Positions 1 to 18,487 of a DNA stretch of 64,000 nucleotides are shown piece by piece. The stretch spans positions 896,001 through 960,000 of the forward strand of contig OZ240219.1 of NCBI GenBank assembly GCA_965197645.1. The letters are read 5' to 3'. Numbering within the stretch: position 1 is the stretch's first letter; each line of letters starts with the position of its first letter. Both the position numbers and the translations under genes were made by a program. The notes under the pieces were generated by a model. It had not been told where the DNA came from. It saw only the letters and a list, made by a program, of their open reading frames with translations, and searched no databases. The stretch is from Dehalococcoidia bacterium (GTDB lineage: Bacteria; Chloroflexota; Dehalococcoidia; Plut-88900).

Positions 1-1
1 C

Positions 2-313
2 AGTGGAGTCGTGGAATCGGACCGGAACGAGTTCGGCATGATGGTCCAGTTCTACGATGGCATCGCCATCGGCATCAGCGACTGGGTCTCCGACGCCAAG
101 ACCGTGGGCACCAACAGCGACTGCTCTACAGTCTACGGCCTTCAGTACGGCGAAGGCGGCGTTGCCGGCCTTAGCGGCCCCGGTGGGTTGCAGGTGGAGC
201 GAATCGGGAGCCTCGAGACCCGGGACGCCACCCGCACCAGGGTGAAGTGGTACGTGGCGTTGGCCCTGTTCAACACCCTCAAGCTGGCCAAGCTTACCGG
301 AGTCAGGGACTAG
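2..313 (+). CDS. Phage-like major capsid protein, C-terminal part (gene starts before the window)
   Basis: Open frame from the window start. The C-terminus ...LQVERIGSLETRDATRTRVKWYVALALFNTLKLAKLTGV resembles HK97-fold capsid C-termini; followed by a strong hairpin and structural-type genes. Confidence 0.75.
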   Translation, partial: SGVVESDRNEFGMMVQFYDGIAIGISDWVSDAKTVGTNSDCSTVYGLQYGEGGVAGLSGPGGLQVERIGSLETRDATRTRVKWYVALALFNTLKLAKLTGVRD

Positions 314-332
314 GACGAAGAAGACGAGACAA

Positions 333-362
333 GGGGCGACGCCTCATCGAAGGCGTCGCCCC
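333..362 (+). terminator. Strong hairpin after the capsid gene (terminator or mRNA stability element)
   Basis: Perfect 12-bp stem GGGGCGACGCCT-catcga-AGGCGTCGCCCC; no U-tract, so possibly leaky or stabilising. Confidence 0.6.
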
Positions 363-404
363 GGCGCTTGTCCCCGGCATTGCGGCCGATGAAGAGGAGG
401 AACG

Positions 405-1043
405 ATGACCACGATAACCGATATCAGAGGCAGGGTCCGCACGGACCTCCACGATGAAGACTCGCAGGACTACCGCTGGACCGATGCCGAGCTGGACAGG
501 CACATAGGCCGGGCGGTGAACGAGCTCAGCCTGGCGATCCCCCTGGAGGCGAAGGCTACACTCACCACCGCGGCCGGCAGCAGGGACGTCTCCATAGCCG
601 GTCTCTCGGATCGGGTGGCCGTCGAAGCCGTGGAGTACCCCGCGGGAAAGTATCCGCCGGCCTACGTCAGGTTCAGCATCTGGATGGACACGCTGACCAT
701 GCACATCGATGGCGTCCCCGTGGCCGGTGAGACCGTCGCCGTCCACTACACCAGGCCTCATACCCTGGATGCCGCCGGTTCGACGGTGCCTCCGCCCCTG
801 GAGGAGCTGGTGGCCACCGGCGCAGCCGGCTACGCTGCCCTGGAGTGGGCCAGCTTCGCCACAAACCGGATAAACGTCGGCGGCGAGGAGGTATGTAGGC
901 AGTACCTGGCCTGGGGGCAAGACCGGATCAGCGCGTTTCTGAGTGGCCTGGCGGAACGTGGTCGCAGGAACACGGTCAGGGCACGGAGCCTTTACACCCC
1001 CTCCCGCCTACCCGAGGACAAGACTACGGTGATGGGGCCGTAA
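405..1043 (+). CDS. Putative head-tail adaptor/connector protein
   Basis: 212 aa, RBS GAGGAGG. N-terminus MTTITDIRGRVRTDLHD...RWTDAELDRHIGRAV is typical of phage adaptor proteins; lies directly after the capsid gene. Confidence 0.6.
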   Translation: MTTITDIRGRVRTDLHDEDSQDYRWTDAELDRHIGRAVNELSLAIPLEAKATLTTAAGSRDVSIAGLSDRVAVEAVEYPAGKYPPAYVRFSIWMDTLTMHIDGVPVAGETVAVHYTRPHTLDAAGSTVPPPLEELVATGAAGYAALEWASFATNRINVGGEEVCRQYLAWGQDRISAFLSGLAERGRRNTVRARSLYTPSRLPEDKTTVMGP

Positions 1044-1044
1044 G

Positions 1045-3036
1045 ATGAGGACCCTGTCATCGACTCTTCTGGAAGCCCAGAAAAGCGCTTCCAGCGTGCC
1101 CCACGTGAAGGTAGAAGTGTTCGACCGGATCGGCGGCGTGCCTCGTCTGCGGTTCGAACGGCACTACACCGGCTCCGAGCCCGAGGACTTTCACGCCGCC
1201 ACCATACCCTCGGACGGCTCTCTCATCAGGGCCAGAGTGGCTGGCTCCGGCCGACATTACATCTACTTGCAACGGGTCCCCAATCCCACTCCAACCAGCG
1301 ATTTTGGCTCCTGGACCCGGGCGATTCAGGTCTCCAGTGTCGCCAACATGGCCATCTGCAGCGAGGGTTCCAGAGTGCTGTTGGCCCACGTCTCCTCCAA
1401 CAAGAGGAGCATTTACGCCAGGCAGAGCGATGATAACGGACAGACCTACGGGCACAGCGTCCTGATAGCCACCTCAGCAACATCCGTCAAGTGGATGGCT
1501 GTTGCCCTGAAACCCGATGGTACCGCGTTATTCATCTACACCACGGGCGCTGCCAATCTATACACGTCGAAGCGGACCTCCAGCGGATGGTCGAATCCCA
1601 GGCCGTGGGCCAGCGGGATGTCGGATATCAGCGGCGTCAACGTGGTCTATGACAACGACTGGAACGTGGTCTTGGCCGGCAAGGATAGTCGGGGCAGGCC
1701 CGGCGTGTGGACGGCCATCTATGGAGATGGATCGTCCCGAGCGGCGAACACCTGGTCGAGCCGTAAAAACCTGACCATAGCCGACAACGGTTCCGGTCTC
1801 ACCTTCGAGTCCCCCTTCATCGCCAAGCCCGGCTCCTATCGGGTCACCTTCGTCGAACGATACAGGGGGTCCTCCTCCTACGATCTGCCGTTTCTCTCTT
1901 TCACCATGCCCAACTCCGGTTTCTCCAGTAACTTGTGGCGAGAACCCGTCCCCCTCAATCTCACCAGTACGAGGGGTATAGCCGTAGCCCACGGCGCCGA
2001 TCGGGTCTGGCTCTCTACCCCCTCCGGAGTGTGGTCGGCTGTGCGAGACGCAGCGCCCCTGGACATCAGCCAGGACGTGCTGAGCGTCAAACAGTCTCTA
2101 TCGGCCTACTCCGGTGAGATGAAGATGGAGCTGCGCAATGATGATGGGAAATACAACAGCGTCGGCGCCGGCCCCCTGGACATGCTGCAAAAAGGATCGG
2201 AGATACGGCTGGGCCTTGGCTATCGTACCAGCGCCGGTATCGAGGTCTCCTCCGGGTCCACCGTTTGGATAGAGAGCTGGGAATACCGGCGTCACGGCGG
2301 GAGGTCCACCATAGCTATCACCGCCAGGGACTGGTGGGGACTGTTGGAGACCTGGAAGGCTCGCAGGCAGTTCACCTGGGCGGAGGGCGACAGCAACGTT
2401 GCACCTCTCCTGGCCGCCGTTCTGGCCCGCGCAGGACTGGGGTTTGTCCCCGGAGCCTCGGTAAGCGCCGCCATGTCCAGCCACTCTCCGTCGTTCACCA
2501 TACATCCCGGGGAGTCTGCGGCTACGGCCGTGAAGCGTCTGCTATCGATGGTGCCGGACGTGGTGTTCTTCTCCTTTACGAGGTGCACCTCTCTCAACCC
2601 CCGCGCCTCCGACCCCAGCGCCTACAGCTACGGCACCGACCACCCGGTCCTGGAGTCCCGACACCGAGACCCGGCGCCTGAATTCAACCGGGTGCAGGTC
2701 TTCGGCGCATCCGTATTCAACGAGAGCTATGACTGGACCGACATGCACCTGGTCTATGATCGACTCAGGCAGGTACACGACCTCAATCTGAACACCTCGC
2801 AAAAGGCCGTCGCCCAGGTGGCCAGGGAACTGAGGCACCAGACAATGAGCAGCGACCGGGGCGAGATCACCGTCCCCGCCAACGCCGGTCAGGAGCTCTA
2901 CGACGTCGTGGACGTGACCGATCCGGCGGCCGGCATGCAGGCGATCAAGCGGCGGGTCATGGGCCTCCGCACCGAGTACCGGACGAATGGCAACCGGCCC
3001 GGATTTACCCAGACCCTGTATCTGGGCAATGTGTAA
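1045..3036 (+). CDS. Putative phage tail/baseplate protein (beta-rich N-terminus with Asp-box; hub-like C-terminus)
   Basis: 663 aa, starts 1 nt after the upstream stop. Asp-box-like SDDNGQTY; C-terminus (GEITVPANAGQELYDVVDVTD...RRVMGL...QTLYLG) resembles tail hub proteins. Confidence 0.55.
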   Translation: MRTLSSTLLEAQKSASSVPHVKVEVFDRIGGVPRLRFERHYTGSEPEDFHAATIPSDGSLIRARVAGSGRHYIYLQRVPNPTPTSDFGSWTRAIQVSSVANMAICSEGSRVLLAHVSSNKRSIYARQSDDNGQTYGHSVLIATSATSVKWMAVALKPDGTALFIYTTGAANLYTSKRTSSGWSNPRPWASGMSDISGVNVVYDNDWNVVLAGKDSRGRPGVWTAIYGDGSSRAANTWSSRKNLTIADNGSGLTFESPFIAKPGSYRVTFVERYRGSSSYDLPFLSFTMPNSGFSSNLWREPVPLNLTSTRGIAVAHGADRVWLSTPSGVWSAVRDAAPLDISQDVLSVKQSLSAYSGEMKMELRNDDGKYNSVGAGPLDMLQKGSEIRLGLGYRTSAGIEVSSGSTVWIESWEYRRHGGRSTIAITARDWWGLLETWKARRQFTWAEGDSNVAPLLAAVLARAGLGFVPGASVSAAMSSHSPSFTIHPGESAATAVKRLLSMVPDVVFFSFTRCTSLNPRASDPSAYSYGTDHPVLESRHRDPAPEFNRVQVFGASVFNESYDWTDMHLVYDRLRQVHDLNLNTSQKAVAQVARELRHQTMSSDRGEITVPANAGQELYDVVDVTDPAAGMQAIKRRVMGLRTEYRTNGNRPGFTQTLYLGNV

Positions 3037-3132
3037 AGAAGGCGTTCCAGGCTTCCTAGCCTTGAGCCCGACTTGGGCTCGCCGAAGTATGGGTGTCTGG
3101 GCCTTGGTCGACGACTTGGAAGGAGAGTACCA

Positions 3133-3345
3133 ATGCAGACCAGAAAAGGCGTCATAAAGGGTTTCAACTCAAGCAGCTATCTGGCCACGGTGCAGATCTC
3201 CGGCAGCCTCTCGGTCTGGCTGGAGGGCGTTCCCGTAGCCCGAAACATCCCATCGGGGCAGATGGTGACCGGCAGGAACTGCGCAGTCCTCTTCTTCGAT
3301 CCCAGCAACCCCAAAGACGGCGTGGTAACGGCAGTGTACACCTGA
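3133..3345 (+). CDS. Small OB-fold-like protein, possible tail spike/baseplate component
   Basis: 70 aa from ATG 3133 with RBS AGGAG. KGVIKGFNSSSYLATVQ...WLEGVPVA...GRNCAVLF resembles the N-terminal OB fold of gpV/gp5-type proteins. Confidence 0.5.
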   Translation: MQTRKGVIKGFNSSSYLATVQISGSLSVWLEGVPVARNIPSGQMVTGRNCAVLFFDPSNPKDGVVTAVYT

Positions 3346-3373
3346 TCGCCACCCCGCTCGCTCCCTACTCCCG

Positions 3374-3424
3374 TGCTATAATGCCCGAGCCGTGGCGTTG
3401 AGGGCGTTCCTGAAAGGAGCGCCC
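3374..3424 (+). promoter_or_regulatory. Extended -10 promoter (TGCTATAAT) followed by a hairpin upstream of the MFS gene
   Basis: TGnTATAAT at 3374-3382; stem GGGCGTTCCT/AGGAGCGCCC at 3402-3424. Confidence 0.45.
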
Positions 3425-3472
3425 GATTTTCATTGTGAACTATAGGCGAGTACGCTCCGGCGCGGAGTTCCC

Positions 3473-4723
3473 TTGCAGCGTCCCGTAGATCGGCCCTCGG
3501 CCTACCGGTGGGTCATCGTATTTTCGCTCACTTCATCGGTGGGCACCACCCTCTCTATTCTGTTCATCCTGGGACTACTCCTACCCGAGATATCAAAAGA
3601 TCTGGACCTTTCGCCCTCTAAACAAGGCTGGCTGGGTTCCTCGGTACTGCTGGCAAACCTGTTCCTGTGCATACCCAGCAACCTGGTCACATCCAGGTTC
3701 AAGCCCAGACGTACCGTAACCCTGCTCTTCATCTGCATAGGAGGGTTCACGTTGCTCCAGGGGTGGGCGTCCGCTTTGGCAGTCCTCATCGTGGGACGGG
3801 TCTTATGCGGGGTCTGCTTCACGGCCACCCAGTCGCCCAGGGCGACGCTGATACAGCAGTGGACCCCTCGTCACCGGCTCCCCTTTACCAACGGCGTGAT
3901 CTTCGCCGGCATAGACCTGATTATGGGACTGGCCCTGTTCTTGACCCCCCAGATTCAGGACTGGGTGGGCGGCTGGCAGAACACACTTTACGTCTGGGGA
4001 GCCATATCCTTGGCCCTCACCGTCGTATGGCTGTTGGTCGGAAGGGAGAGGGAGACCGCCGAGTTCACGGCGCGGATGCGATCTCAAACCCAGGCTCCCC
4101 TCAAGGGGGTGCTGAAGTATAAACAGCTGTGGATCATGGGCTTCGGCATGATGGGCGCCATGCTGGGCCAGACCGCCTTGCAGACCTTCTGGCCGACCCT
4201 GGCCGAAAAGGAGTTGGGAGTAACACCGACCATCGTTGGCCTCGCTCTGGGCATGACCACCCTCGCTGCCGCACCCACCGATTTTCTGGTCAATGCAGTA
4301 CCCACCCTCGTCCGAAGGCAGACGATAATACTGGCCGTCGGTGGGTTGATGTCCACCGGCATCTTCCTGGCCCTCCTCTACGTAGAGTCCGAACCGCTGA
4401 TCGTCCTGCTGAGCGTATTTAAGGGGTTCTCCTTCTCTTTCTTCCCGGTACTGATGATAATGGTGTTTCTGCTGCCGGGAATCAAACCGCGAGAGGTGGG
4501 CTTGGGGCTGGCATTCATGGAGACCTCCATCTGGGTCGGGTCCGCCATCGGCCCCCTGTTGGTCGGGTTCCTGCAGGAGGCCACCGATAACCTTCGCTTC
4601 GCACTTACGGTGTCCTCCTTCTCCCCCCTATCCCTGATCATAGCGGCCTTCTTGATTCAAGCTGTACGGCGTTCCACTCCATCGGAGATACCCGCCGGCA
4701 CCCTGGCCAAAACGGGCTCGTGA
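3473..4723 (+). CDS. MFS transporter
   Basis: 416 aa, about 12 hydrophobic segments, MFS-like spacing (ISKDLDLSPSKQGWLGS, GSAIGPLLVGFL). Confidence 0.85.
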   Translation: MQRPVDRPSAYRWVIVFSLTSSVGTTLSILFILGLLLPEISKDLDLSPSKQGWLGSSVLLANLFLCIPSNLVTSRFKPRRTVTLLFICIGGFTLLQGWASALAVLIVGRVLCGVCFTATQSPRATLIQQWTPRHRLPFTNGVIFAGIDLIMGLALFLTPQIQDWVGGWQNTLYVWGAISLALTVVWLLVGRERETAEFTARMRSQTQAPLKGVLKYKQLWIMGFGMMGAMLGQTALQTFWPTLAEKELGVTPTIVGLALGMTTLAAAPTDFLVNAVPTLVRRQTIILAVGGLMSTGIFLALLYVESEPLIVLLSVFKGFSFSFFPVLMIMVFLLPGIKPREVGLGLAFMETSIWVGSAIGPLLVGFLQEATDNLRFALTVSSFSPLSLIIAAFLIQAVRRSTPSEIPAGTLAKTGS

Positions 4724-5648: not shown

Positions 5649-7595
5649 ATGAAGCTCTCCCGTATCCATCTGGTTCTCCCTTCGCTGGCAGTTTTGGTCT
5701 TGGCTCTGGCCTGCGGCTCCGGTGCACCGGGGGTCGTCTCAACCCCTACCATCGAACCCGCTGAAGACTCGGTGGAGGGCGCAATCGAGGTATCCTTTCC
5801 CGACATTCCCACCCCACCCGACCTCGACCTGTATGCCCTCGCCGAAGCCTTTGGGCTGAGCCCGGATGGGGCCATCCCCCGCCTGACCGCCATCGATCCC
5901 CATGACGAGGCGATAGGCGTCCAGCGGACGTTCTGGATCGTCGACCTGGACGAGCGGGAACCCCTCCAGGTCTCTGCAACCCTGCGATACATCAGCCCCC
6001 ACCTCTACATGTACGTCGAAGATGGACGAGGGGTATCGGAGGAGGACCTCGCCGAGGCTGCCCAGGAGTTCGAGGAGGTGATCTACCCCGCTATGGCTGC
6101 TCGATTTGGCGGTCTGCCGGACGCCGGAGACGACGGCGCCGGACGCCTTACGGTGCTCCACGCTCGCATTCCCGCCGTGGCGGGCTACTACAATCCGGCC
6201 GATGAGTATCCCTCCTTGATAAACCGCTACAGCAACGAACGGCGAATGATGTACATCAACCTGGACGCCGCCTGGCCCGGGACGGCCTACTACTCCTCGG
6301 TGCTGACCCACGAGCTTCAGCATGCTATCCACGCCGCGGCCGATCCCACAGAGGAGGGATGGATCAACGAAGGACTGTCGACCCTCTCGGAGGAGATCGT
6401 TGACCCGCAAGTGACATGGTATCTGTACTACAGAGACGAGCCGGACACCCAGCTTACCGGCTGGGGGGTCGACCCGGGCACTTCCGGCAAACACTACGGC
6501 GCAGCCTATCTGTTCATGAAGTACTTCAGCCAGCACTATGGCGGCCCGGAAGCGGACGGTGGGATCAGCGCCCTGGTCTCCCATCAGGCCGACGGCATCG
6601 AAGGAATCAACGCCTACCTCTCCGAAAGCGGATACGAAACCGACTTCGAAAAGGTGTTCAAGGACTGGGTCGTGGCCAACTACCTGGACAAAGCGGAGGG
6701 CGGTATCCACAGCTACGAGGACCTGGATTTCCGGCTGCCCACGACCAGGAGGGCAACCGACTACGGGCGCATCTCGGGGGCGGTGCCCCAGTATGCCGCT
6801 CACTATGTGGCCGTGAGCCTGAAACAAGGCAGCGCCCGCATAGTGTTCCACGGCACTCCACAAACGAGACTCCTGCATAACCAGGCTCACAGCGGCAGCT
6901 GGCAGTGGTGGAGCAACCAGGGCGATGCCATCAACTCCACCCTCACCCGTGAGGTGGACCTGCTCGGCCACAGCGAGGCCAGCCTGGATTTCTGGGCCTG
7001 GTACGATATCGAAGATGACTTCGATTTCGCCTACGTGGTGGCCTCAACCGACGGGGGCCGCACCTGGGATATCCTTCGGGGAGACCACTCCACCGACGAT
7101 ACTCTCTTGGGCAATAGCTTCGGACCTTCCTACTCGGGCGTCAGCGGGGACGGAGAGAACCCCCAGTGGGTGTTCGAGAGCATAGACCTGTCCCCCTACG
7201 CCGGTCGAAAGGTCCTGGTCCGGTTCCAGTACGTCACAGACGGAGCCGTCAACATTCGCGGCCTGGCCATCGACGACATCTCCATCTCCGCCGTCGGATT
7301 CGAGGATGATGTCGAACATGGGGACGACGGGTGGATTGCGGAAGGGTTCGTCCGCATCCCGGACCTGGTGCCCCAAAGCTTCTCCGTTCAGGCCATCCAC
7401 TTTGGCGATACGGTCTCAGTTAGCGAGGTCCCCCTTTCGGCCGGGCAACGGGGCGAGCTGACGGTCCACGGCTTCGGCAGCGAGATCGATGAGGTGGTGC
7501 TGGTGATAGCGGGGACCACTCCCTTCACCAACGAGCTCGCCTCCTACTACGTTTCGGTCCTGCCCGTCTTAGATCCGGGTAGTGCCTCGTTTTGA
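5649..7595 (+). CDS. Lipoprotein zinc metallopeptidase (M30-like HExxH domain plus immune inhibitor A-like C-terminal domain)
   Basis: Lipobox LALAC; HELQH...WINEGLS; WYDIEDDFDFAYV...STDGGRTW...RFQYVTD. The last 5 residues and stop codon come from the transposon's left IR. Confidence 0.85.
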   Translation: MKLSRIHLVLPSLAVLVLALACGSGAPGVVSTPTIEPAEDSVEGAIEVSFPDIPTPPDLDLYALAEAFGLSPDGAIPRLTAIDPHDEAIGVQRTFWIVDLDEREPLQVSATLRYISPHLYMYVEDGRGVSEEDLAEAAQEFEEVIYPAMAARFGGLPDAGDDGAGRLTVLHARIPAVAGYYNPADEYPSLINRYSNERRMMYINLDAAWPGTAYYSSVLTHELQHAIHAAADPTEEGWINEGLSTLSEEIVDPQVTWYLYYRDEPDTQLTGWGVDPGTSGKHYGAAYLFMKYFSQHYGGPEADGGISALVSHQADGIEGINAYLSESGYETDFEKVFKDWVVANYLDKAEGGIHSYEDLDFRLPTTRRATDYGRISGAVPQYAAHYVAVSLKQGSARIVFHGTPQTRLLHNQAHSGSWQWWSNQGDAINSTLTREVDLLGHSEASLDFWAWYDIEDDFDFAYVVASTDGGRTWDILRGDHSTDDTLLGNSFGPSYSGVSGDGENPQWVFESIDLSPYAGRKVLVRFQYVTDGAVNIRGLAIDDISISAVGFEDDVEHGDDGWIAEGFVRIPDLVPQSFSVQAIHFGDTVSVSEVPLSAGQRGELTVHGFGSEIDEVVLVIAGTTPFTNELASYYVSVLPVLDPGSASF

Positions 7596-7596
7596 A
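7570..7596 (+). repeat. Left target-site duplication (7570-7577) and left terminal inverted repeat (7578-7596)
   Basis: TAGATCCG|GGTAGTGCCTCGTTTTGAA read directly from the sequence. Confidence 0.92.
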
Positions 7597-7629
7597 TTGC
7601 TCACGCCTCGCTCCGCTAGCTATAGGGTG

Positions 7630-7658
7630 TTGACAAACTATAACGGCCCACTTACGAT
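7630..7658 (+). promoter_or_regulatory. sigma70-like promoter inside the left end of the element
   Basis: TTGACA-17 nt-TACGAT. Confidence 0.6.
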
Positions 7659-7692
7659 TGACACGTGCATTAGCTGGGGTGAGGAAGGACAC

Positions 7693-7890
7693 ATGACCAC
7701 CATTGAACAACGAGTTGGTCAGCTAGAGGGTGCTTATCAACACCTTGCAACCAAGGAAGACGTGGCAGGGTTGAAATCTGAACTGAAAGGCGACCTGCTC
7801 AATGTTGTCATCAAGTTGGCTGGTTTACAGCTTCTCGGTATAGGCGCAGTCGCCGCCATAATGCACTTCCTGGGAGGAGGGGGGTCATAA
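7693..7890 (+). CDS. Small coiled-coil protein with C-terminal TM helix (DUF1640/CCDC90-like)
   Basis: 65 aa from ATG 7693, RBS GAGGAAGG; LATKEDV motif followed by a hydrophobic tail. Confidence 0.65.
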   Translation: MTTIEQRVGQLEGAYQHLATKEDVAGLKSELKGDLLNVVIKLAGLQLLGIGAVAAIMHFLGGGGS

Positions 7891-7892
7891 TC

Positions 7893-8138
7893 ATGCGAGG
7901 ACCTAACGGAGAAAAGAGACCTAGGGACCCCATCGCCCGTGCTGTCATGGTAGCAAAGATAGCTACTGGCGAGATTGAAGAACAGCTGCCATCTAAGCGG
8001 CGCAACGGCGGCCTGAAAGGCGGCCCTGCCCGTGCTAAGGCCCTCAGCCCAGAGCGGCGCAGGGAGATAGCAAAAAAGGCTGGTTTGTCGCAAAAGAAAA
8101 ACTTGACTGCGGAGGAGAAGGGCGGAATCGAACCGTAA
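7893..8138 (+). CDS. Small basic protein (GEKRP...IATGE...KGGxARA...RREIA type), often seen beside IS1-like transposases
   Basis: 81 aa, Lys/Arg-rich, KGG-like motif; the association with transposases is recalled knowledge, not searched. Confidence 0.7.
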   Translation: MRGPNGEKRPRDPIARAVMVAKIATGEIEEQLPSKRRNGGLKGGPARAKALSPERRREIAKKAGLSQKKNLTAEEKGGIEP

Positions 8139-8204
8139 TGCTAGGTTGAGCTAGCGATTCGGGGGGTCTCATCCCCCGTCCCGTCCAACGGGCAACCCTC
8201 TCTC

Positions 8205-8230
8205 AAGGCCCTGGCTTAGTCCAGGGCCTT
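8205..8230 (+). terminator. Hairpin/terminator after the first cargo operon
   Basis: 10-bp stem AAGGCCCTGG-cttagt-CCAGGGCCTT. Confidence 0.6.
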
Positions 8231-8258
8231 CCCTATTCTATCAACCCCCTATACGGTA

Positions 8259-8288
8259 TTGACAAGCTGAGAAGCCTGAACGTAAGGT
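8259..8288 (+). promoter_or_regulatory. sigma70-like promoter of the second cargo operon
   Basis: TTGACA-18 nt-TAAGGT. Confidence 0.5.
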
Positions 8289-8290
8289 GT

Positions 8291-8470
8291 ACGCGACTTG
8301 ACGGTCATTCGTGTCGTAATCCGGCTGGGCATTCGAGGCAAGGTAAGCCAGAGGGATTTCGCCCTTTCATGCCCCCTCTGGCCCTGCCGGGTTGCGGATG
8401 ACCGTCAAGCACCGAAATCCTGATGGCTCGGAGGGGGCACCAGCTTGTCCCCTTCGCACAAAGGGGGCAC
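8291..8470 (+). ncRNA. Highly structured, potentially bistable 5' leader RNA
   Basis: Mutually exclusive helices: 8297-8309/8397-8409 versus 8370-8383/8425-8439; anti-RBS 8446-8454 can pair with 8431-8439 or with the RBS 8461-8469. Confidence 0.6.
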
Positions 8471-8474
8471 GTGC

Positions 8475-17656: not shown

Positions 17657-18487
17657 CTATCCCCCCTTGTACTTTGGGTAGGACCCGAAGATGTGCAGCC
17701 TGGAGGTGACCCTCTCGACTGTCTCCAGGGCGTCCTTCACGGGCGACTGCTTCCTATGTCCGTCCAGGTCCACCAGAAAGATGTACTGGCCCAGGCTCTC
17801 CTTGGAAGGCCGGGACTCGATCTTGGCCAGGTTTATGTTTCGCCGGGCAAACTCTCCCAACACCTCCACCAGCAGCCCAGGCTTGTCGCTGGCGAAGGAG
17901 AAGCATAGGGACGTCCGGTCCAAGCCGGTGGGTTCATGGTCCGCCGAAGATAGCACCACGAACCGGGTCACGTTGGTGGAGGTCTCCTGGATGTCTCTCG
18001 CCAGGACCTCCACTTGGTAGATGTCCGCCGCCCGCCGAGTGGCCACCGCCGCCACGACCCCATCCCCCTTTTTCACTTCTTGCACCCCGGCTGCGGTGCT
18101 GAGAGCGCCCTCCATCCGGGCCTTGGGGAAGCATCTCTCCAGGAACCCGCGACACTGGGCCAACGCCTGGGGATGGGAGTAGATCACCTTTATCTTTTCG
18201 GCGGTAGTGCCCGGCTTGACCAGAAGGTAGTGACGGATGGGAAGGACTATCTCTTGCCGGATGGCGAGGTTGGACTCCCGAATCAGCAGGTCCAGGGTGT
18301 CGGTAACCGATCCCTCGATGCTGTTCTCGATGGCCACCACGCCTTCGTCCACCATCCCGCTGACCACCGCGGTGGCCACTGCCGGGATGGAGGGGAAGGG
18401 GATCAGTTGAGCGGAGTCATCGTAGAGGAGGGCCGCCTCCTCGGTGAAGGTGCCCGCGGGGCCCAGGTACCCTATCTTCCTAGCCAT
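17657..18487 (-). CDS. pheA: Prephenate dehydratase
   Basis: YLGPAGTFTEEAA, IENSIEGSV, SHPQALAQC, TRF, ACT domain with IESRP. Confidence 0.97.
   Translation of the reverse strand: MARKIGYLGPAGTFTEEAALLYDDSAQLIPFPSIPAVATAVVSGMVDEGVVAIENSIEGSVTDTLDLLIRESNLAIRQEIVLPIRHYLLVKPGTTAEKIKVIYSHPQALAQCRGFLERCFPKARMEGALSTAAGVQEVKKGDGVVAAVATRRAADIYQVEVLARDIQETSTNVTRFVVLSSADHEPTGLDRTSLCFSFASDKPGLLVEVLGEFARRNINLAKIESRPSKESLGQYIFLVDLDGHRKQSPVKDALETVERVTSRLHIFGSYPKYKGG

What the first reader, a model, noticed from the sequence alone, without database searches (positions are those of the whole stretch)
1..3345. Minimal, host-like phage structural cluster: candidate gene transfer agent or domesticated particle
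Seen: capsid C-terminus, strong hairpin, adaptor-like gene, one 663-aa tail/hub-like gene and a 70-aa OB-fold gene, all intact. They are as GC-rich as the housekeeping genes and run directly into an MFS gene with its own promoter. No tape measure, tail tube/sheath, lysis gene, integrase or tRNA follows. Established: GTAs such as RcGTA are prophage-derived structural clusters ameliorated to host composition and lacking replication/integration genes. From memory (not searched), similar capsid and MR.LS.TLL.AQK proteins occur in Dehalococcoidia chromosomes. Inference: a vertically inherited short-tailed GTA-like particle of Chloroflexota, possibly uncharacterised. Only the 3' end is visible.
Basis: partly seen in the sequence, partly recalled or inferred. 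Interest (0 to 1): 0.85.

Follow-up and report, generated by a model that had tools for sequence, protein, structure and literature searches.

The report
Domesticated phage-particle gene cluster of Dehalococcoidia
This is the tail end of a small, chromosome-fixed set of phage head and short-tail genes that much of the bacterial class Dehalococcoidia has inherited and kept under selection, which makes it a strong candidate for a new gene-transfer-agent-like particle.

Summary
Window 1-3345 encodes the capsid C-terminus, a strong hairpin, an SU10-type adaptor, a 663-aa baseplate-hub protein and a 70-aa OB-fold protein.

The 6 kb upstream complete a 9.4-kb island: candidate small terminase, large terminase (TerL), an HTH protein, portal, scaffold and capsid. 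No integrase, replication, lysis, tube, sheath or tape-measure gene and no att repeat was found. Composition is host-like.

The capsid occurs in 223 of 401 Dehalococcoidia genomes, clade by clade, mostly as one match per genome. Gene order is colinear in 79 of 80 named loci. The cluster is often split by inserted genes.

All element genes show dN/dS of 0.05-0.39, with dS on the same scale as RpoB. All 7 well-supported RpoB clades recur in the element tree, although an AU test rejects identical topology.

This fits an old, vertically inherited, domesticated particle of independent origin, like a gene transfer agent. Function is unproven.

Caveats:
- G000's own TerL carries a 1-nt deletion that a sister strain lacks.
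- Some lineages lost tail genes.
- Three short viral contigs have an integrase at or inside the cluster.

No prior description was found in seven literature searches.

The parts
2..313 (+). C-terminal 103 aa of the 296-aa major capsid protein. The whole gene is G000:C1:895423-896313 (L002:17423-18313). The rest of the island lies upstream of the window, in L002 coordinates (window = L002 - 18000): o128, candidate small terminase, 12209-12595; o85, 12558-12815; TerL in two frames, 12821-13882 and 13831-14214; HTH protein, 14289-14633; portal, 14655-15977; antisense SAM methyltransferase, 15974-16816(-); scaffold-like protein, 16935-17378.
   Evidence: MCP: PHROG 212 at 2.5e-72, plus Pfam Phage_capsid, SU10_MCP and GP7. 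Portal: SPP1_portal 7.3e-17 and PHROG 64 3.2e-34. TerL: an intact relative matches annotated phage large terminases over 95% of its length, E 3e-37.
323..372 (+). Strong RNA hairpin directly after the capsid stop codon (12-bp perfect G+C core at 333-362, no T-run). It may act as an mRNA stabiliser or attenuator that sets the capsid-to-tail expression ratio (inference).
   Evidence: -44.6 kcal/mol for the 106-nt stretch, z = -3.59, 1 of 200 shuffles folds as well.
405..1043 (+). Head-to-tail adaptor, 212 aa, SU10-adaptor family.
   Evidence: Pfam PF24175 at 3.7e-11, 44.3 bits against a cut-off of 27. PHROG 399 'structural protein' at 7.9e-10.
1045..3036 (+). Tail hub protein, 663 aa. The N-terminal half is all-beta and propeller-like with an Asp-box motif; it is a candidate receptor-binding or glycan-binding domain. 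The C-terminal half has the gp27 / Mu gp44 / VgrG baseplate-hub fold.
   Evidence: Model pLDDT 91.8, pTM 0.88. Foldseek PDB: 7aef, 7b5h, 3cdd, 1wru, 9ki1_G, 1k28_D and others at E 2e-15 to 1e-10. BFVD 'tail protein' and 'Phage protein D'. PHROG 1887 'tail protein' covers residues 309-626. The profile gives weak BNR/sialidase matches at residues 104-192.
3133..3345 (+). 70-aa OB-fold protein. It is a candidate minimal central plug, equivalent to the N-terminal OB domain of the P2 gpV, Mu gp45 and T4 gp5 spikes but without a beta-helix.
   Evidence: pLDDT 91.6. Foldseek TMq 0.65-0.70 to 3qr8 (P2 gpV) and 9ki1_V (Mu spike), but also to IF1 and proteasomal OB domains, at E 2e-3 to 4e-2. It sits directly after the hub in 42 ORFs extracted from the 80 loci.
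3402..3434 (+). Terminator-like hairpin (10-bp stem) followed by a T-rich tail. It probably marks the 3' end of the element's operon.

Best explanation
The finding is the 3' end of a phage-derived gene set of about 9.4 kb that has been fixed in the chromosome. The order is candidate TerS (o128), o85, TerL, an HTH protein, portal, scaffold, HK97-type capsid, SU10-type adaptor, a hub fused to a propeller domain, and an OB-fold plug.

The set entered an ancestor within Dehalococcoidia, or possibly deeper in Chloroflexota, and has been passed on vertically under purifying selection.

The most likely mechanism is as follows (inferred, not shown). The host expresses the operon. Scaffold and capsid assemble a head on the portal. 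TerL, with the candidate small subunit, fills the head with DNA. A dodecameric adaptor, a trimeric hub and the OB plug close it with a very short tail, and the propeller domains of the hub bind the recipient's surface.

The locus has no excision, replication or lysis genes, so the particles would carry host DNA rather than a virus genome. That makes it a GTA-like viriform of independent origin.

The copy in this genome carries a 1-nt deletion in TerL and an antisense methyltransferase inserted between portal and scaffold. This strain is therefore probably defective in packaging at present.
For: Shown:

(1) Gene content.
- All ORFs of the island are accounted for. No integrase, replication, lysis, tube, sheath or tape-measure gene is among them.
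- The four PF00589 matches in G000 lie 769 kb or more away. The nearest PF00239 match is 480 kb away.
- No direct repeat of 10 nt or more joins the two boundaries.
- Sheath (PF04984) and tape-measure (PF10145) families give 0 matches in G000, which is 94.5% complete, while ringing in 3 and 8 of the 14 control genomes.

(2) Distribution.
- The capsid is found in 30 of 41 relatives and in 223 of 401 genomes of the class, or 177 of 300 high-quality ones.
- Presence is nearly all-or-none by family: f6 22/25, f16 22/25, f1 10/11, against f22 0/25, f24 0/11, f29 0/8. Most genomes show one match.
- In the 41 relatives, capsid, hub, TerL and portal are all present in 25, all absent in 6 and partly present in 10. 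This is my own tally.

(3) Synteny.
- 79 of 80 named Dehalococcoidia loci are colinear in the canonical order.
- Of 58 loci with at least 9.9 kb upstream of the capsid, only 18 hold the portal there. Inserts of 0-9 kb sit at module junctions. This shows long residence with rearrangement.
- Host flanks are shared within family f1 (HIT/HD upstream, MFS downstream).

(4) Selection and timing.
- dN/dS over 10 genome pairs: capsid 0.05-0.16, portal 0.06-0.14, adaptor 0.11-0.28, hub 0.13-0.39, TerL 0.09-0.38, RpoB 0.04-0.13.
- dS is on the same scale as RpoB. For example, G006-G008 gives capsid 0.50 against RpoB 0.57.

(5) Phylogeny.
- For 16 genomes, all 7 RpoB bipartitions with support of 93 or more are present in the capsid+adaptor+hub tree.
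- Mantel r = 0.70, and 0 of 9999 permutations reach it.

(6) Integrases in relatives.
- With the Pfam model, none of 11 genomes has an integrase within 30 kb of a cluster gene.

(7) No free-phage counterpart.
- The nearest cultured-phage capsids are at most 39.8% identical; 282 records matched, all under 60%.
- The 32 close IMG/VR matches sit on contigs of 4-19 kb that carry the same cluster.

(8) Composition is fully host-like.
Against: - No particle, packaging or transfer data exist, and no RNA run was available.
- G000's TerL is split by a 1-nt deletion. It is intact in 15 of 15 relatives and in a sister strain about 97% identical from another study (X3). The deletion is reproduced in contigs of the probable source sample (X1).
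- G002, a single contig 94% complete, has no hub match anywhere and only a remnant of the OB gene.
- 8 of 59 loci show the hub in more than one piece.
- The AU test rejects identical topology: the element alignment on the RpoB tree gives p = 0.0002, and the reverse gives p = 0.011. Two element clades with support 98 are not in the RpoB tree.
- On IMG/VR contigs L159 and L160 a tyrosine integrase lies about 450 nt upstream of o128. In L167 an integrase block replaces the capsid N-terminus.
- No lysis or regulator genes were identified, and head capacity is unknown.
- A hub of the gp27/gp44 type normally caps a tail tube. A divergent tube gene could have escaped the Pfam searches.
Confidence: 0.6

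Rival explanations
1. A family of very small temperate phages or capsid-forming satellites is still mobile in Dehalococcoidia. G000 and many others carry immobilised copies that have lost their integrase.
For: An integrase lies next to the cluster on L159 and L160, with unannotated small ORFs beside it. L167 has an integrase plus an ORF weakly resembling DnaA. IMG/VR pipelines called 33 such contigs viral. Module junctions take up inserts even between strains about 97% identical: X3 has 2371 nt between the HTH gene and portal. Related capsids occur in other Chloroflexota classes in a different layout, with an amidase-like gene.
Against: None of 11 genomes has a Pfam integrase match within 30 kb. 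Only 3 of 132 loci have an integrase-like ORF, by an improvised HMM. Most genomes show one match, and presence is near-universal within some families. Host flanks are conserved within a family. dS is comparable to RpoB. There are no att repeats in G000 and no tRNA in the five viral contigs examined. In L167 the integrase block interrupts the capsid gene, so it looks like a different element inserted into the cluster.
Confidence: 0.13
2. An old cryptic prophage remnant is decaying neutrally, has no present function, and is kept only by chance and slow deletion.
For: TerL is frameshifted in G000. The adaptor and hub are deleted in G002. Capsid or portal matches are fragmentary in G014 and G015. 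The hub is split in 8 of 59 loci. Unrelated genes are inserted inside the cluster, such as the antisense methyltransferase in G000.
Against: Neutral decay cannot keep nine ORFs open, colinear and at dN/dS 0.05-0.39 across families whose RpoB dS is saturated. TerL mean column identity is 74% over 11 genomes. The four core genes co-occur in 25 of 41 genomes.
Confidence: 0.1
3. The particle is domesticated for a purpose other than gene transfer. Examples are a killing or defence particle, a decoy for phages, or a device that exports DNA for biofilm or nutrient purposes.
For: The hub carries a conserved propeller domain with an Asp-box, as carbohydrate-binding or carbohydrate-cleaving proteins do. 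Lectin-domain genes sit in the cluster in other lineages. In one genus the o128-TerL pair has been amplified to several copies per genome, an unusual fate for a GTA part.
Against: Portal and TerL are kept with the capsid, which points to DNA packaging. Known killing particles (tailocins) lack heads. Nothing in the locus resembles a toxin or effector.
Confidence: 0.15

Closest known systems
RcGTA of Rhodobacter capsulatus and the alphaproteobacterial RcGTA-like clusters (recalled knowledge)
   Same: It is a phage-derived head-tail cluster fixed in the chromosome, ameliorated to host composition and lacking integrase and replication genes. It is inherited vertically across a large clade with losses, is under purifying selection, and is partly dispersed in the genome.
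   Different: It is of independent origin: the portal is SPP1/P22-type, the capsid and adaptor are SU10-type, and the host belongs to another phylum. It has about 9 conserved genes, not about 17, and none for tail tube, tape measure, distal tail or megatron. No regulator, lysis or head-spike loci are identified, and no experimental evidence of transfer exists.
Phage SU10 (Kuravirus) and phages with PHROG 212 capsids
   Same: Capsid and adaptor belong to the same Pfam and PHROG families.
   Different: The best phage capsid identity is 39.8%. Those phages have genomes of 50-58 kb with full tail, replication and lysis modules. Here the tail consists only of a hub and a plug.
Mu gp44/gp45, P2 gpD/gpV and T4 gp27/gp5 hub-spike pairs, and VgrG
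   Same: The hub fold matches at probability 1.00. It is followed by a gene for an OB-fold domain like the spike's N-terminus, in the same gene order.
   Different: The OB protein has no beta-helical needle. The hub has an extra N-terminal propeller of about 300 aa. No tube or sheath for it to cap was found.
Capsid-forming phage satellites (cf-PICIs) and other satellites (recalled knowledge)
   Same: A small locus encoding its own capsid, portal and connector proteins.
   Different: Satellites carry integrase and replication genes, are patchy and mobile, and depend on a helper phage for tails (and, as I recall, often for the large terminase). This locus has TerL and a hub, has no integrase in 11 of 11 genomes checked, and is clade-wide.
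IME1 elements of Dehalococcoides (bioRxiv 10.64898/2026.09.15.751708; abstract, outline and matched passages read)
   Same: A Chloroflexota-restricted particle-forming element in the same class.
   Different: IME1s are 21-28 kb integrative episomes without tailed-phage hallmark genes and are proposed to be filamentous or budding viruses. They are unrelated to this cluster.

Membership tests
Gene transfer agent (functional class) | Host-encoded particles package essentially random host DNA | not testable with these tools
   This needs particle DNA sequencing. Only proxies were tested.
Gene transfer agent (functional class) | Particles transfer DNA to recipient cells | not testable with these tools
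   This needs an experiment.
Gene transfer agent (functional class) | The locus is not self-transmissible: no integrase, excision, replication or att sites | tested here: met
   for G000. None of 11 genomes has PF00589 within 30 kb. Exceptions are the viral contigs L159, L160 and L167.
Gene transfer agent (functional class) | Vertical inheritance and purifying selection across a host clade | tested here: met
   Caveat: the AU test rejects strictly identical topology.
Gene transfer agent (functional class) | The head holds less DNA than is needed to encode the particle | not testable with these tools
   Capsid geometry is unknown.
RcGTA-like cluster (Rhodogtaviriformidae) | Head-tail cluster of about 17 genes with tail tube, tape measure, distal tail, hub and megatron (recalled) | tested here: not met
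   The island holds no tube or tape-measure gene. PF10145 gives 0 matches in G000. Direct homology to RcGTA proteins was not tested.
Functional integrated prophage | Integrase with att sites, repressor and replication module, lysis genes, and a complete tail | tested here: not met
Phage satellite (PICI / cf-PICI) | Integrase, a replication module, and patchy strain-specific distribution | tested here: not met
SU10 adaptor family (PF24175) | Profile match above Pfam's gathering score | tested here: met
   44.3 bits against 27.
gp27 / Mu gp44 / VgrG baseplate hub fold | Structural match to solved hubs | tested here: met
   Foldseek probability 1.00, E 2e-15 to 1e-10, TM (target-normalised) up to 0.72.
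Large terminase | Full-length similarity to phage TerL, with conserved ATPase and nuclease motifs | tested here: met
   An intact relative matches annotated terminases at E 3e-37 over 95% of its length. The 3 PDB profile hits are all TerL nuclease domains but weak, E 0.045-0.062. Pfam and PHROG give no hit to the two G000 pieces. In G000 the gene is frameshifted.

The most novel reading that the evidence does not exclude
Dehalococcoidia, and perhaps a wider part of Chloroflexota, carry an ancient gene transfer agent domesticated independently of all known ones. It is built from only about nine genes, which would make it the smallest self-contained tailed-particle gene set known. Its tail is reduced to an adaptor, a propeller-bearing hub and an OB plug. 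In one genus the candidate small and large terminase pair has been amplified, possibly diversifying what gets packaged. This would be a main route of gene exchange in a globally abundant and mostly uncultured class.
Probability: 0.35. Interest if true: 0.88.

Novelty: new variant of a known kind. Interest (0 to 1): 0.74.

Why it matters
Only a handful of independently domesticated gene transfer agents are known, and none is from Chloroflexota.

Dehalococcoidia are abundant in subsurface, marine and contaminated environments. They are mostly uncultured, have small genomes, and their reductive-dehalogenase genes are known to move on genomic islands. The route of that exchange is poorly understood.

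A conserved, selected, host-encoded DNA-packaging particle would give a concrete and testable mechanism. The minimal architecture also bears on what the smallest workable tailed particle is, and it offers a compact gene set for structural and synthetic work.

If the particle instead serves defence or killing, that would also be a new use of a headed phage particle.

Tried and rejected
Attempts that gave nothing usable:
- Complex prediction with hub residues 300-663 and the 70-aa protein returned 'no answer'. It is not evidence either way.
- The look-up of sequencing runs listed no RNA holder, so expression could not be examined.
- The PF06841 tube search is uninformative, because no control genome rang.
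- The sigma-70 scan found no promoter in window 1-3600.
- Pfam and PHROG gave nothing for o128, o85, the two TerL pieces and the 70-aa protein.
- The ESM Atlas placed o128 among unnamed Chloroflexota clusters. The nearest named cluster, a T5 small terminase, scores only 0.81, which is a lead only.
- The TerL profile against PDB sequences was weak.

Methods that needed correction or have known limits:
- The first quick capsid-only tree was poorly resolved, with 1 of 17 branches starred. In that run the RpoB row of G040 was a wrong antisense ORF. I re-extracted RpoB by tblastn and used a three-protein concatenation.
- The concatenation used 16 of the 20 genomes for which I held a capsid. G002, G012, G017 and G024 were dropped because adaptor or hub coverage was below 70%.
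- My improvised integrase HMM, built from 6 seed sequences, has untested sensitivity. I therefore added Pfam searches of whole genomes.

Readings I considered and rejected:
- Encapsulin nanocompartment: rejected because portal and TerL are present.
- Tailocin: rejected because capsid and TerL are present and no sheath or tube was found.
- IME1: rejected because it lacks tailed-phage hallmarks.

Literature. Seven searches were run: 36 papers, 15 listed; 6; 13; 0; 12; 2; 1. I saw listings and the starts of abstracts only, except for the IME1 preprint (abstract, outline and passages) and PMC12507015 (one passage, which was a reference-list entry). None describes this cluster. Supplementary tables were not seen. 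Subscription journals are not covered.

Unpublished data. G243 is one of the 223 positives. No other claim rests on it.

Full report
WHAT IS THERE.

The window is G000:C1:896001-960000 of a single-contig, 3.21-Mb genome. In window 1-3345 the + strand carries the following features.

- The last 103 codons of a major capsid gene (PHROG 212, 1.1e-15).
- A hairpin with a perfect 12-bp G+C core at 333-362 (-44.6 kcal/mol for the 106-nt stretch, z = -3.59).
- A 212-aa adaptor (Pfam SU10_adaptor, 44.3 bits against a cut-off of 27).
- A 663-aa protein.
- A 70-aa protein (window 3133-3345).
- A terminator-like hairpin with a T-run at 3402-3424.

An MFS transporter follows. Only the 'own promoter' of the MFS gene found no support in the consensus scan.

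THE REST OF THE ELEMENT.

I fetched the 40 kb upstream. Six acyl-CoA dehydrogenase paralogues, a HIT protein and an HD protein run up to L002:11784. Window position equals L002 position minus 18000.

Then the island begins:
- o128 (L002:12209-12595)
- o85 (12558-12815)
- a large terminase in two frames (12821-13882 and 13831-14214)
- a 114-aa HTH protein (14289-14633; sigma-70 region 4 type, PHROG 'late transcriptional activator', 5.6e-6)
- portal (14655-15977; SPP1_portal 7.3e-17, PHROG 64 3.2e-34)
- a SAM methyltransferase on the opposite strand (15974-16816)
- a scaffold-like coiled-coil protein (16935-17378; PHROG 1793, 0.005)
- the 296-aa capsid (17423-18313; PHROG 212, 2.5e-72)

The whole island is about 9.4 kb (G000 889990-899345).

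It has none of the marks of a mobile or recently acquired element.
- Integrases. The four PF00589 matches in G000 are at least 769 kb away, and the nearest PF00239 match is 480 kb away.
- Boundaries. No direct repeat of 10 nt or more joins the boundaries.
- tRNAs. There is no tRNA in L002. The nearest are tRNA-Gly about 28 kb upstream and tRNA-Leu 4.8 kb downstream, beyond three host genes.
- Composition. GC is 0.618 against 0.608 for the genome, and the tetranucleotide distance is typical.

THE PROTEINS.

TerL. Neither piece hits Pfam or PHROG. An intact relative matches annotated phage large terminases over 95% of its length (Bacillus phage vB_BboS-125, 3e-37). The three weak PDB profile hits are all TerL nuclease domains.

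The 663-aa protein folds with mean pLDDT 91.8.
- About 340 aligned columns match baseplate hubs at Foldseek probability 1.00: Mu gp44, MuSo2 43-kDa protein, T4 gp27, VgrG, contractile-injection-system hubs and the phage 80alpha baseplate.
- It also matches 'tail protein' and 'phage protein D' models of viruses.
- PHROG 1887 'tail protein' covers residues 309-626, so the hub is the C-terminal half.
- The N-terminal half is all-beta. It carries an Asp-box and gives weak BNR/sialidase profile matches. I read it as a propeller, but I did not search that domain on its own.

The 70-aa protein (pLDDT 91.6) is an OB barrel. Its better structural matches include the N-terminal OB domains of central spikes (P2 gpV, Mu gp45, T4 gp5, VgrG) as well as generic OB folds such as IF1, all at weak E-values. 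An OB-fold gene placed right after a hub gene mirrors the hub-spike gene order of Mu, P2 and T4.

o128 has no family. I call it a candidate small terminase only because of its position before TerL and its co-amplification with TerL. The Atlas gives no more than a lead.

No sheath or tape-measure family matches anywhere in G000, although the controls rang.

DISTRIBUTION.

- Relatives. The capsid is found in 30 of 41 relatives from many families at 54-80% identity, and once in G000.
- Class. It is found in 223 of 401 genomes, or 177 of 300 high-quality ones, mostly as one match per genome. Presence is nearly all-or-none by family: f6 22/25, f16 22/25, f1 10/11, against f22 0/25, f24 0/11, f29 0/8. 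One of the 223, G243, is an unpublished genome.
- Taxon. Record titles name the class as Dehalococcoidia.
- Phylum. In a phylum-wide sample, 45 of 401 match at E <= 1e-30. Of these, 21 are marked 'same phylum' rather than 'same class', at 47-55% identity. In the four such loci I examined the layout differs, and one has an amidase-like gene after the capsid. They may be nearer to the ancestral phage.
- Co-occurrence. Hub, TerL and portal were found in 29, 33 and 34 of the same 41 relatives. By my tally all four genes are present in 25, absent in 6 and partly present in 10. Seven of the 10 partial genomes are assemblies of 100-340 contigs; the other three are G002 (1 contig), G004 (7) and G031 (50).

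SYNTENY.

- In 80 named loci the order o128, (o85), TerL, HTH, portal, scaffold, capsid, adaptor, hub, OB protein is kept in 79.
- Inserts of 0-9 kb sit between TerL and HTH, portal and scaffold, scaffold and capsid, and capsid and adaptor.
- Of 58 loci with at least 9.9 kb upstream of the capsid, 18 hold the portal, 20 hold only the scaffold and 20 hold neither. The packaging half is therefore often elsewhere. In G037 it lies about 170 kb away.
- Within family f1 the host flanks are shared (HIT/HD upstream, MFS downstream).
- Other lineages carry further conserved same-strand small genes in the gaps. Examples are a 103-141-aa ORF between adaptor and hub in 16 loci, and a family of 7 ORFs in 7 loci whose representative has a ConA-like lectin domain. 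G000's form is thus a reduced one.

SELECTION AND DESCENT.

- dN/dS over ten genome pairs: capsid 0.05-0.16, portal 0.06-0.14, adaptor 0.11-0.28, hub 0.13-0.39, scaffold 0.14-0.31, TerL 0.09-0.38, RpoB 0.04-0.13. dS is of the same order as RpoB's in the same pairs.
- For 16 genomes, the maximum-likelihood tree of capsid+adaptor+hub contains all 7 RpoB bipartitions with support of 93 or more. The 6 it lacks have RpoB support of 88 or less. Patristic distances correlate (Mantel r = 0.70, 0 of 9999 permutations).
- Against strict co-divergence, the AU test rejects the RpoB topology for the element data (p = 0.0002) and the reverse (p = 0.011). Two element clades with support 98 are absent from the RpoB tree.
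- One RpoB gene tree is not the species tree, so this is broad congruence, not proof.

THE RIVAL: A LIVE MOBILE ELEMENT.

- Phage records. Cultured phages share at most 39.8% capsid identity; 282 records matched, all below 60%.
- IMG/VR. The scan holds 33 related loci. The 32 close ones are on contigs of 4-19 kb and show the same colinear cluster.
- Flanking genes. I tested ten flanking ORFs from five contigs. Two are tyrosine integrases: L160, about 450 nt upstream of o128, and L167. L159 shows the same arrangement as L160. In L167 the integrase block replaces the first 44 codons of the capsid, which looks like another element inserted into the cluster.
- Integrase frequency. My improvised integrase HMM found such ORFs in 3 of 132 loci. 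The curated Pfam model found none within 30 kb of a cluster gene in 11 of 11 genomes. The nearest were a fragment 35 kb away in G279 and a 309-aa gene 37 kb away in G037. In G016, G030 and G035 there was none on the same contig.

So a mobile form may exist in some lineages, but it is not the rule.

DECAY.

- TerL in G000. It lacks one base. The reading frame is single and open in 15 of 15 relatives.
- Contigs of four runs laid on the island:
  - A strain about 97% identical from another study (X3) has an extra A at exactly that place, restoring the relatives' consensus.
  - The probable source sample (X1) reproduces the deletion.
  - Two runs of a third study (X5, X7) cover the place at low depth without that insertion. 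Eight indel rows were not shown, so their state is open.
- X3 also has 2371 nt between the HTH gene and portal.
- G002 has lost the adaptor and hub.
- 8 of 59 loci show a split hub. Some of these may be long-read assembly errors.

VERDICT.

The genomic signature is that of a domesticated, vertically inherited phage-particle gene set. It resembles a GTA in every feature that sequence can show, and its origin is independent of the known GTAs. The particle, what it packages and whether it transfers DNA remain to be shown.

I found no earlier description in seven literature searches.

Noticed in passing
G003:C1 near 434 kb, 1028 kb, 2248 kb and 2897 kb (L128-L131), and other genomes of genus g4: The two-gene module o128-TerL is present in four or more full-length copies per genome (78-83% nt identity over about 1.4-2.2 kb) and is flanked by short repeats of 85-95% identity. 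Portal, capsid and hub give one match each in G003 and most g4 genomes. Dozens of further ORFs per g4 genome match only TerL residues of about 200-375 at 35-50% identity.
   Followed up: partly
L172 2923-2943 (window about -3377 to -3357), in run X3: A strain about 97% identical from another study has 2371 nt in place of 19 nt between the HTH gene and the portal. Module junctions therefore take up inserts even between strains.
   Followed up: no
L002:15974-16816, minus strand (upstream of the window): A 280-aa SAM-dependent methyltransferase lies antisense between portal and scaffold in G000. Its end overlaps the portal gene's end by 4 nt.
   Followed up: no
L138 (G611), L133-L135 (G554, G656, G639): Chloroflexota outside the class carry capsids 47-55% identical in a different layout (TerL, portal, adaptor-like, scaffold, capsid). 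In L138 an amidase/endolysin-like gene lies downstream. These may be closer to the ancestral phage.
   Followed up: partly
L167:1-10000 and L160:1-6292 (IMG/VR contigs): Integrase-bearing blocks of unannotated small ORFs abut the cluster. In L167 the block replaces the first 44 codons of the capsid gene and includes an ORF weakly resembling DnaA.
   Followed up: partly
Gaps between capsid, adaptor and hub in L021, L025, L034, L055, L064, L097 and others: Conserved same-strand small ORFs of unknown family recur in 5-16 loci each. One family of 7 ORFs in 7 loci has a ConA-like lectin domain, found on one representative. They are absent from G000's compact version.
   Followed up: partly
L002:1856-10667 (upstream of the island): Six acyl-CoA dehydrogenase paralogues lie in one 9-kb stretch, interrupted by a 475-aa SBBP beta-propeller-repeat protein.
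   Followed up: no
window 7500-12000: GC falls from about 0.62 to 0.50-0.58 beyond tRNA-Leu (8114-8202, minus strand). This may be another, more recent island.
   Followed up: no
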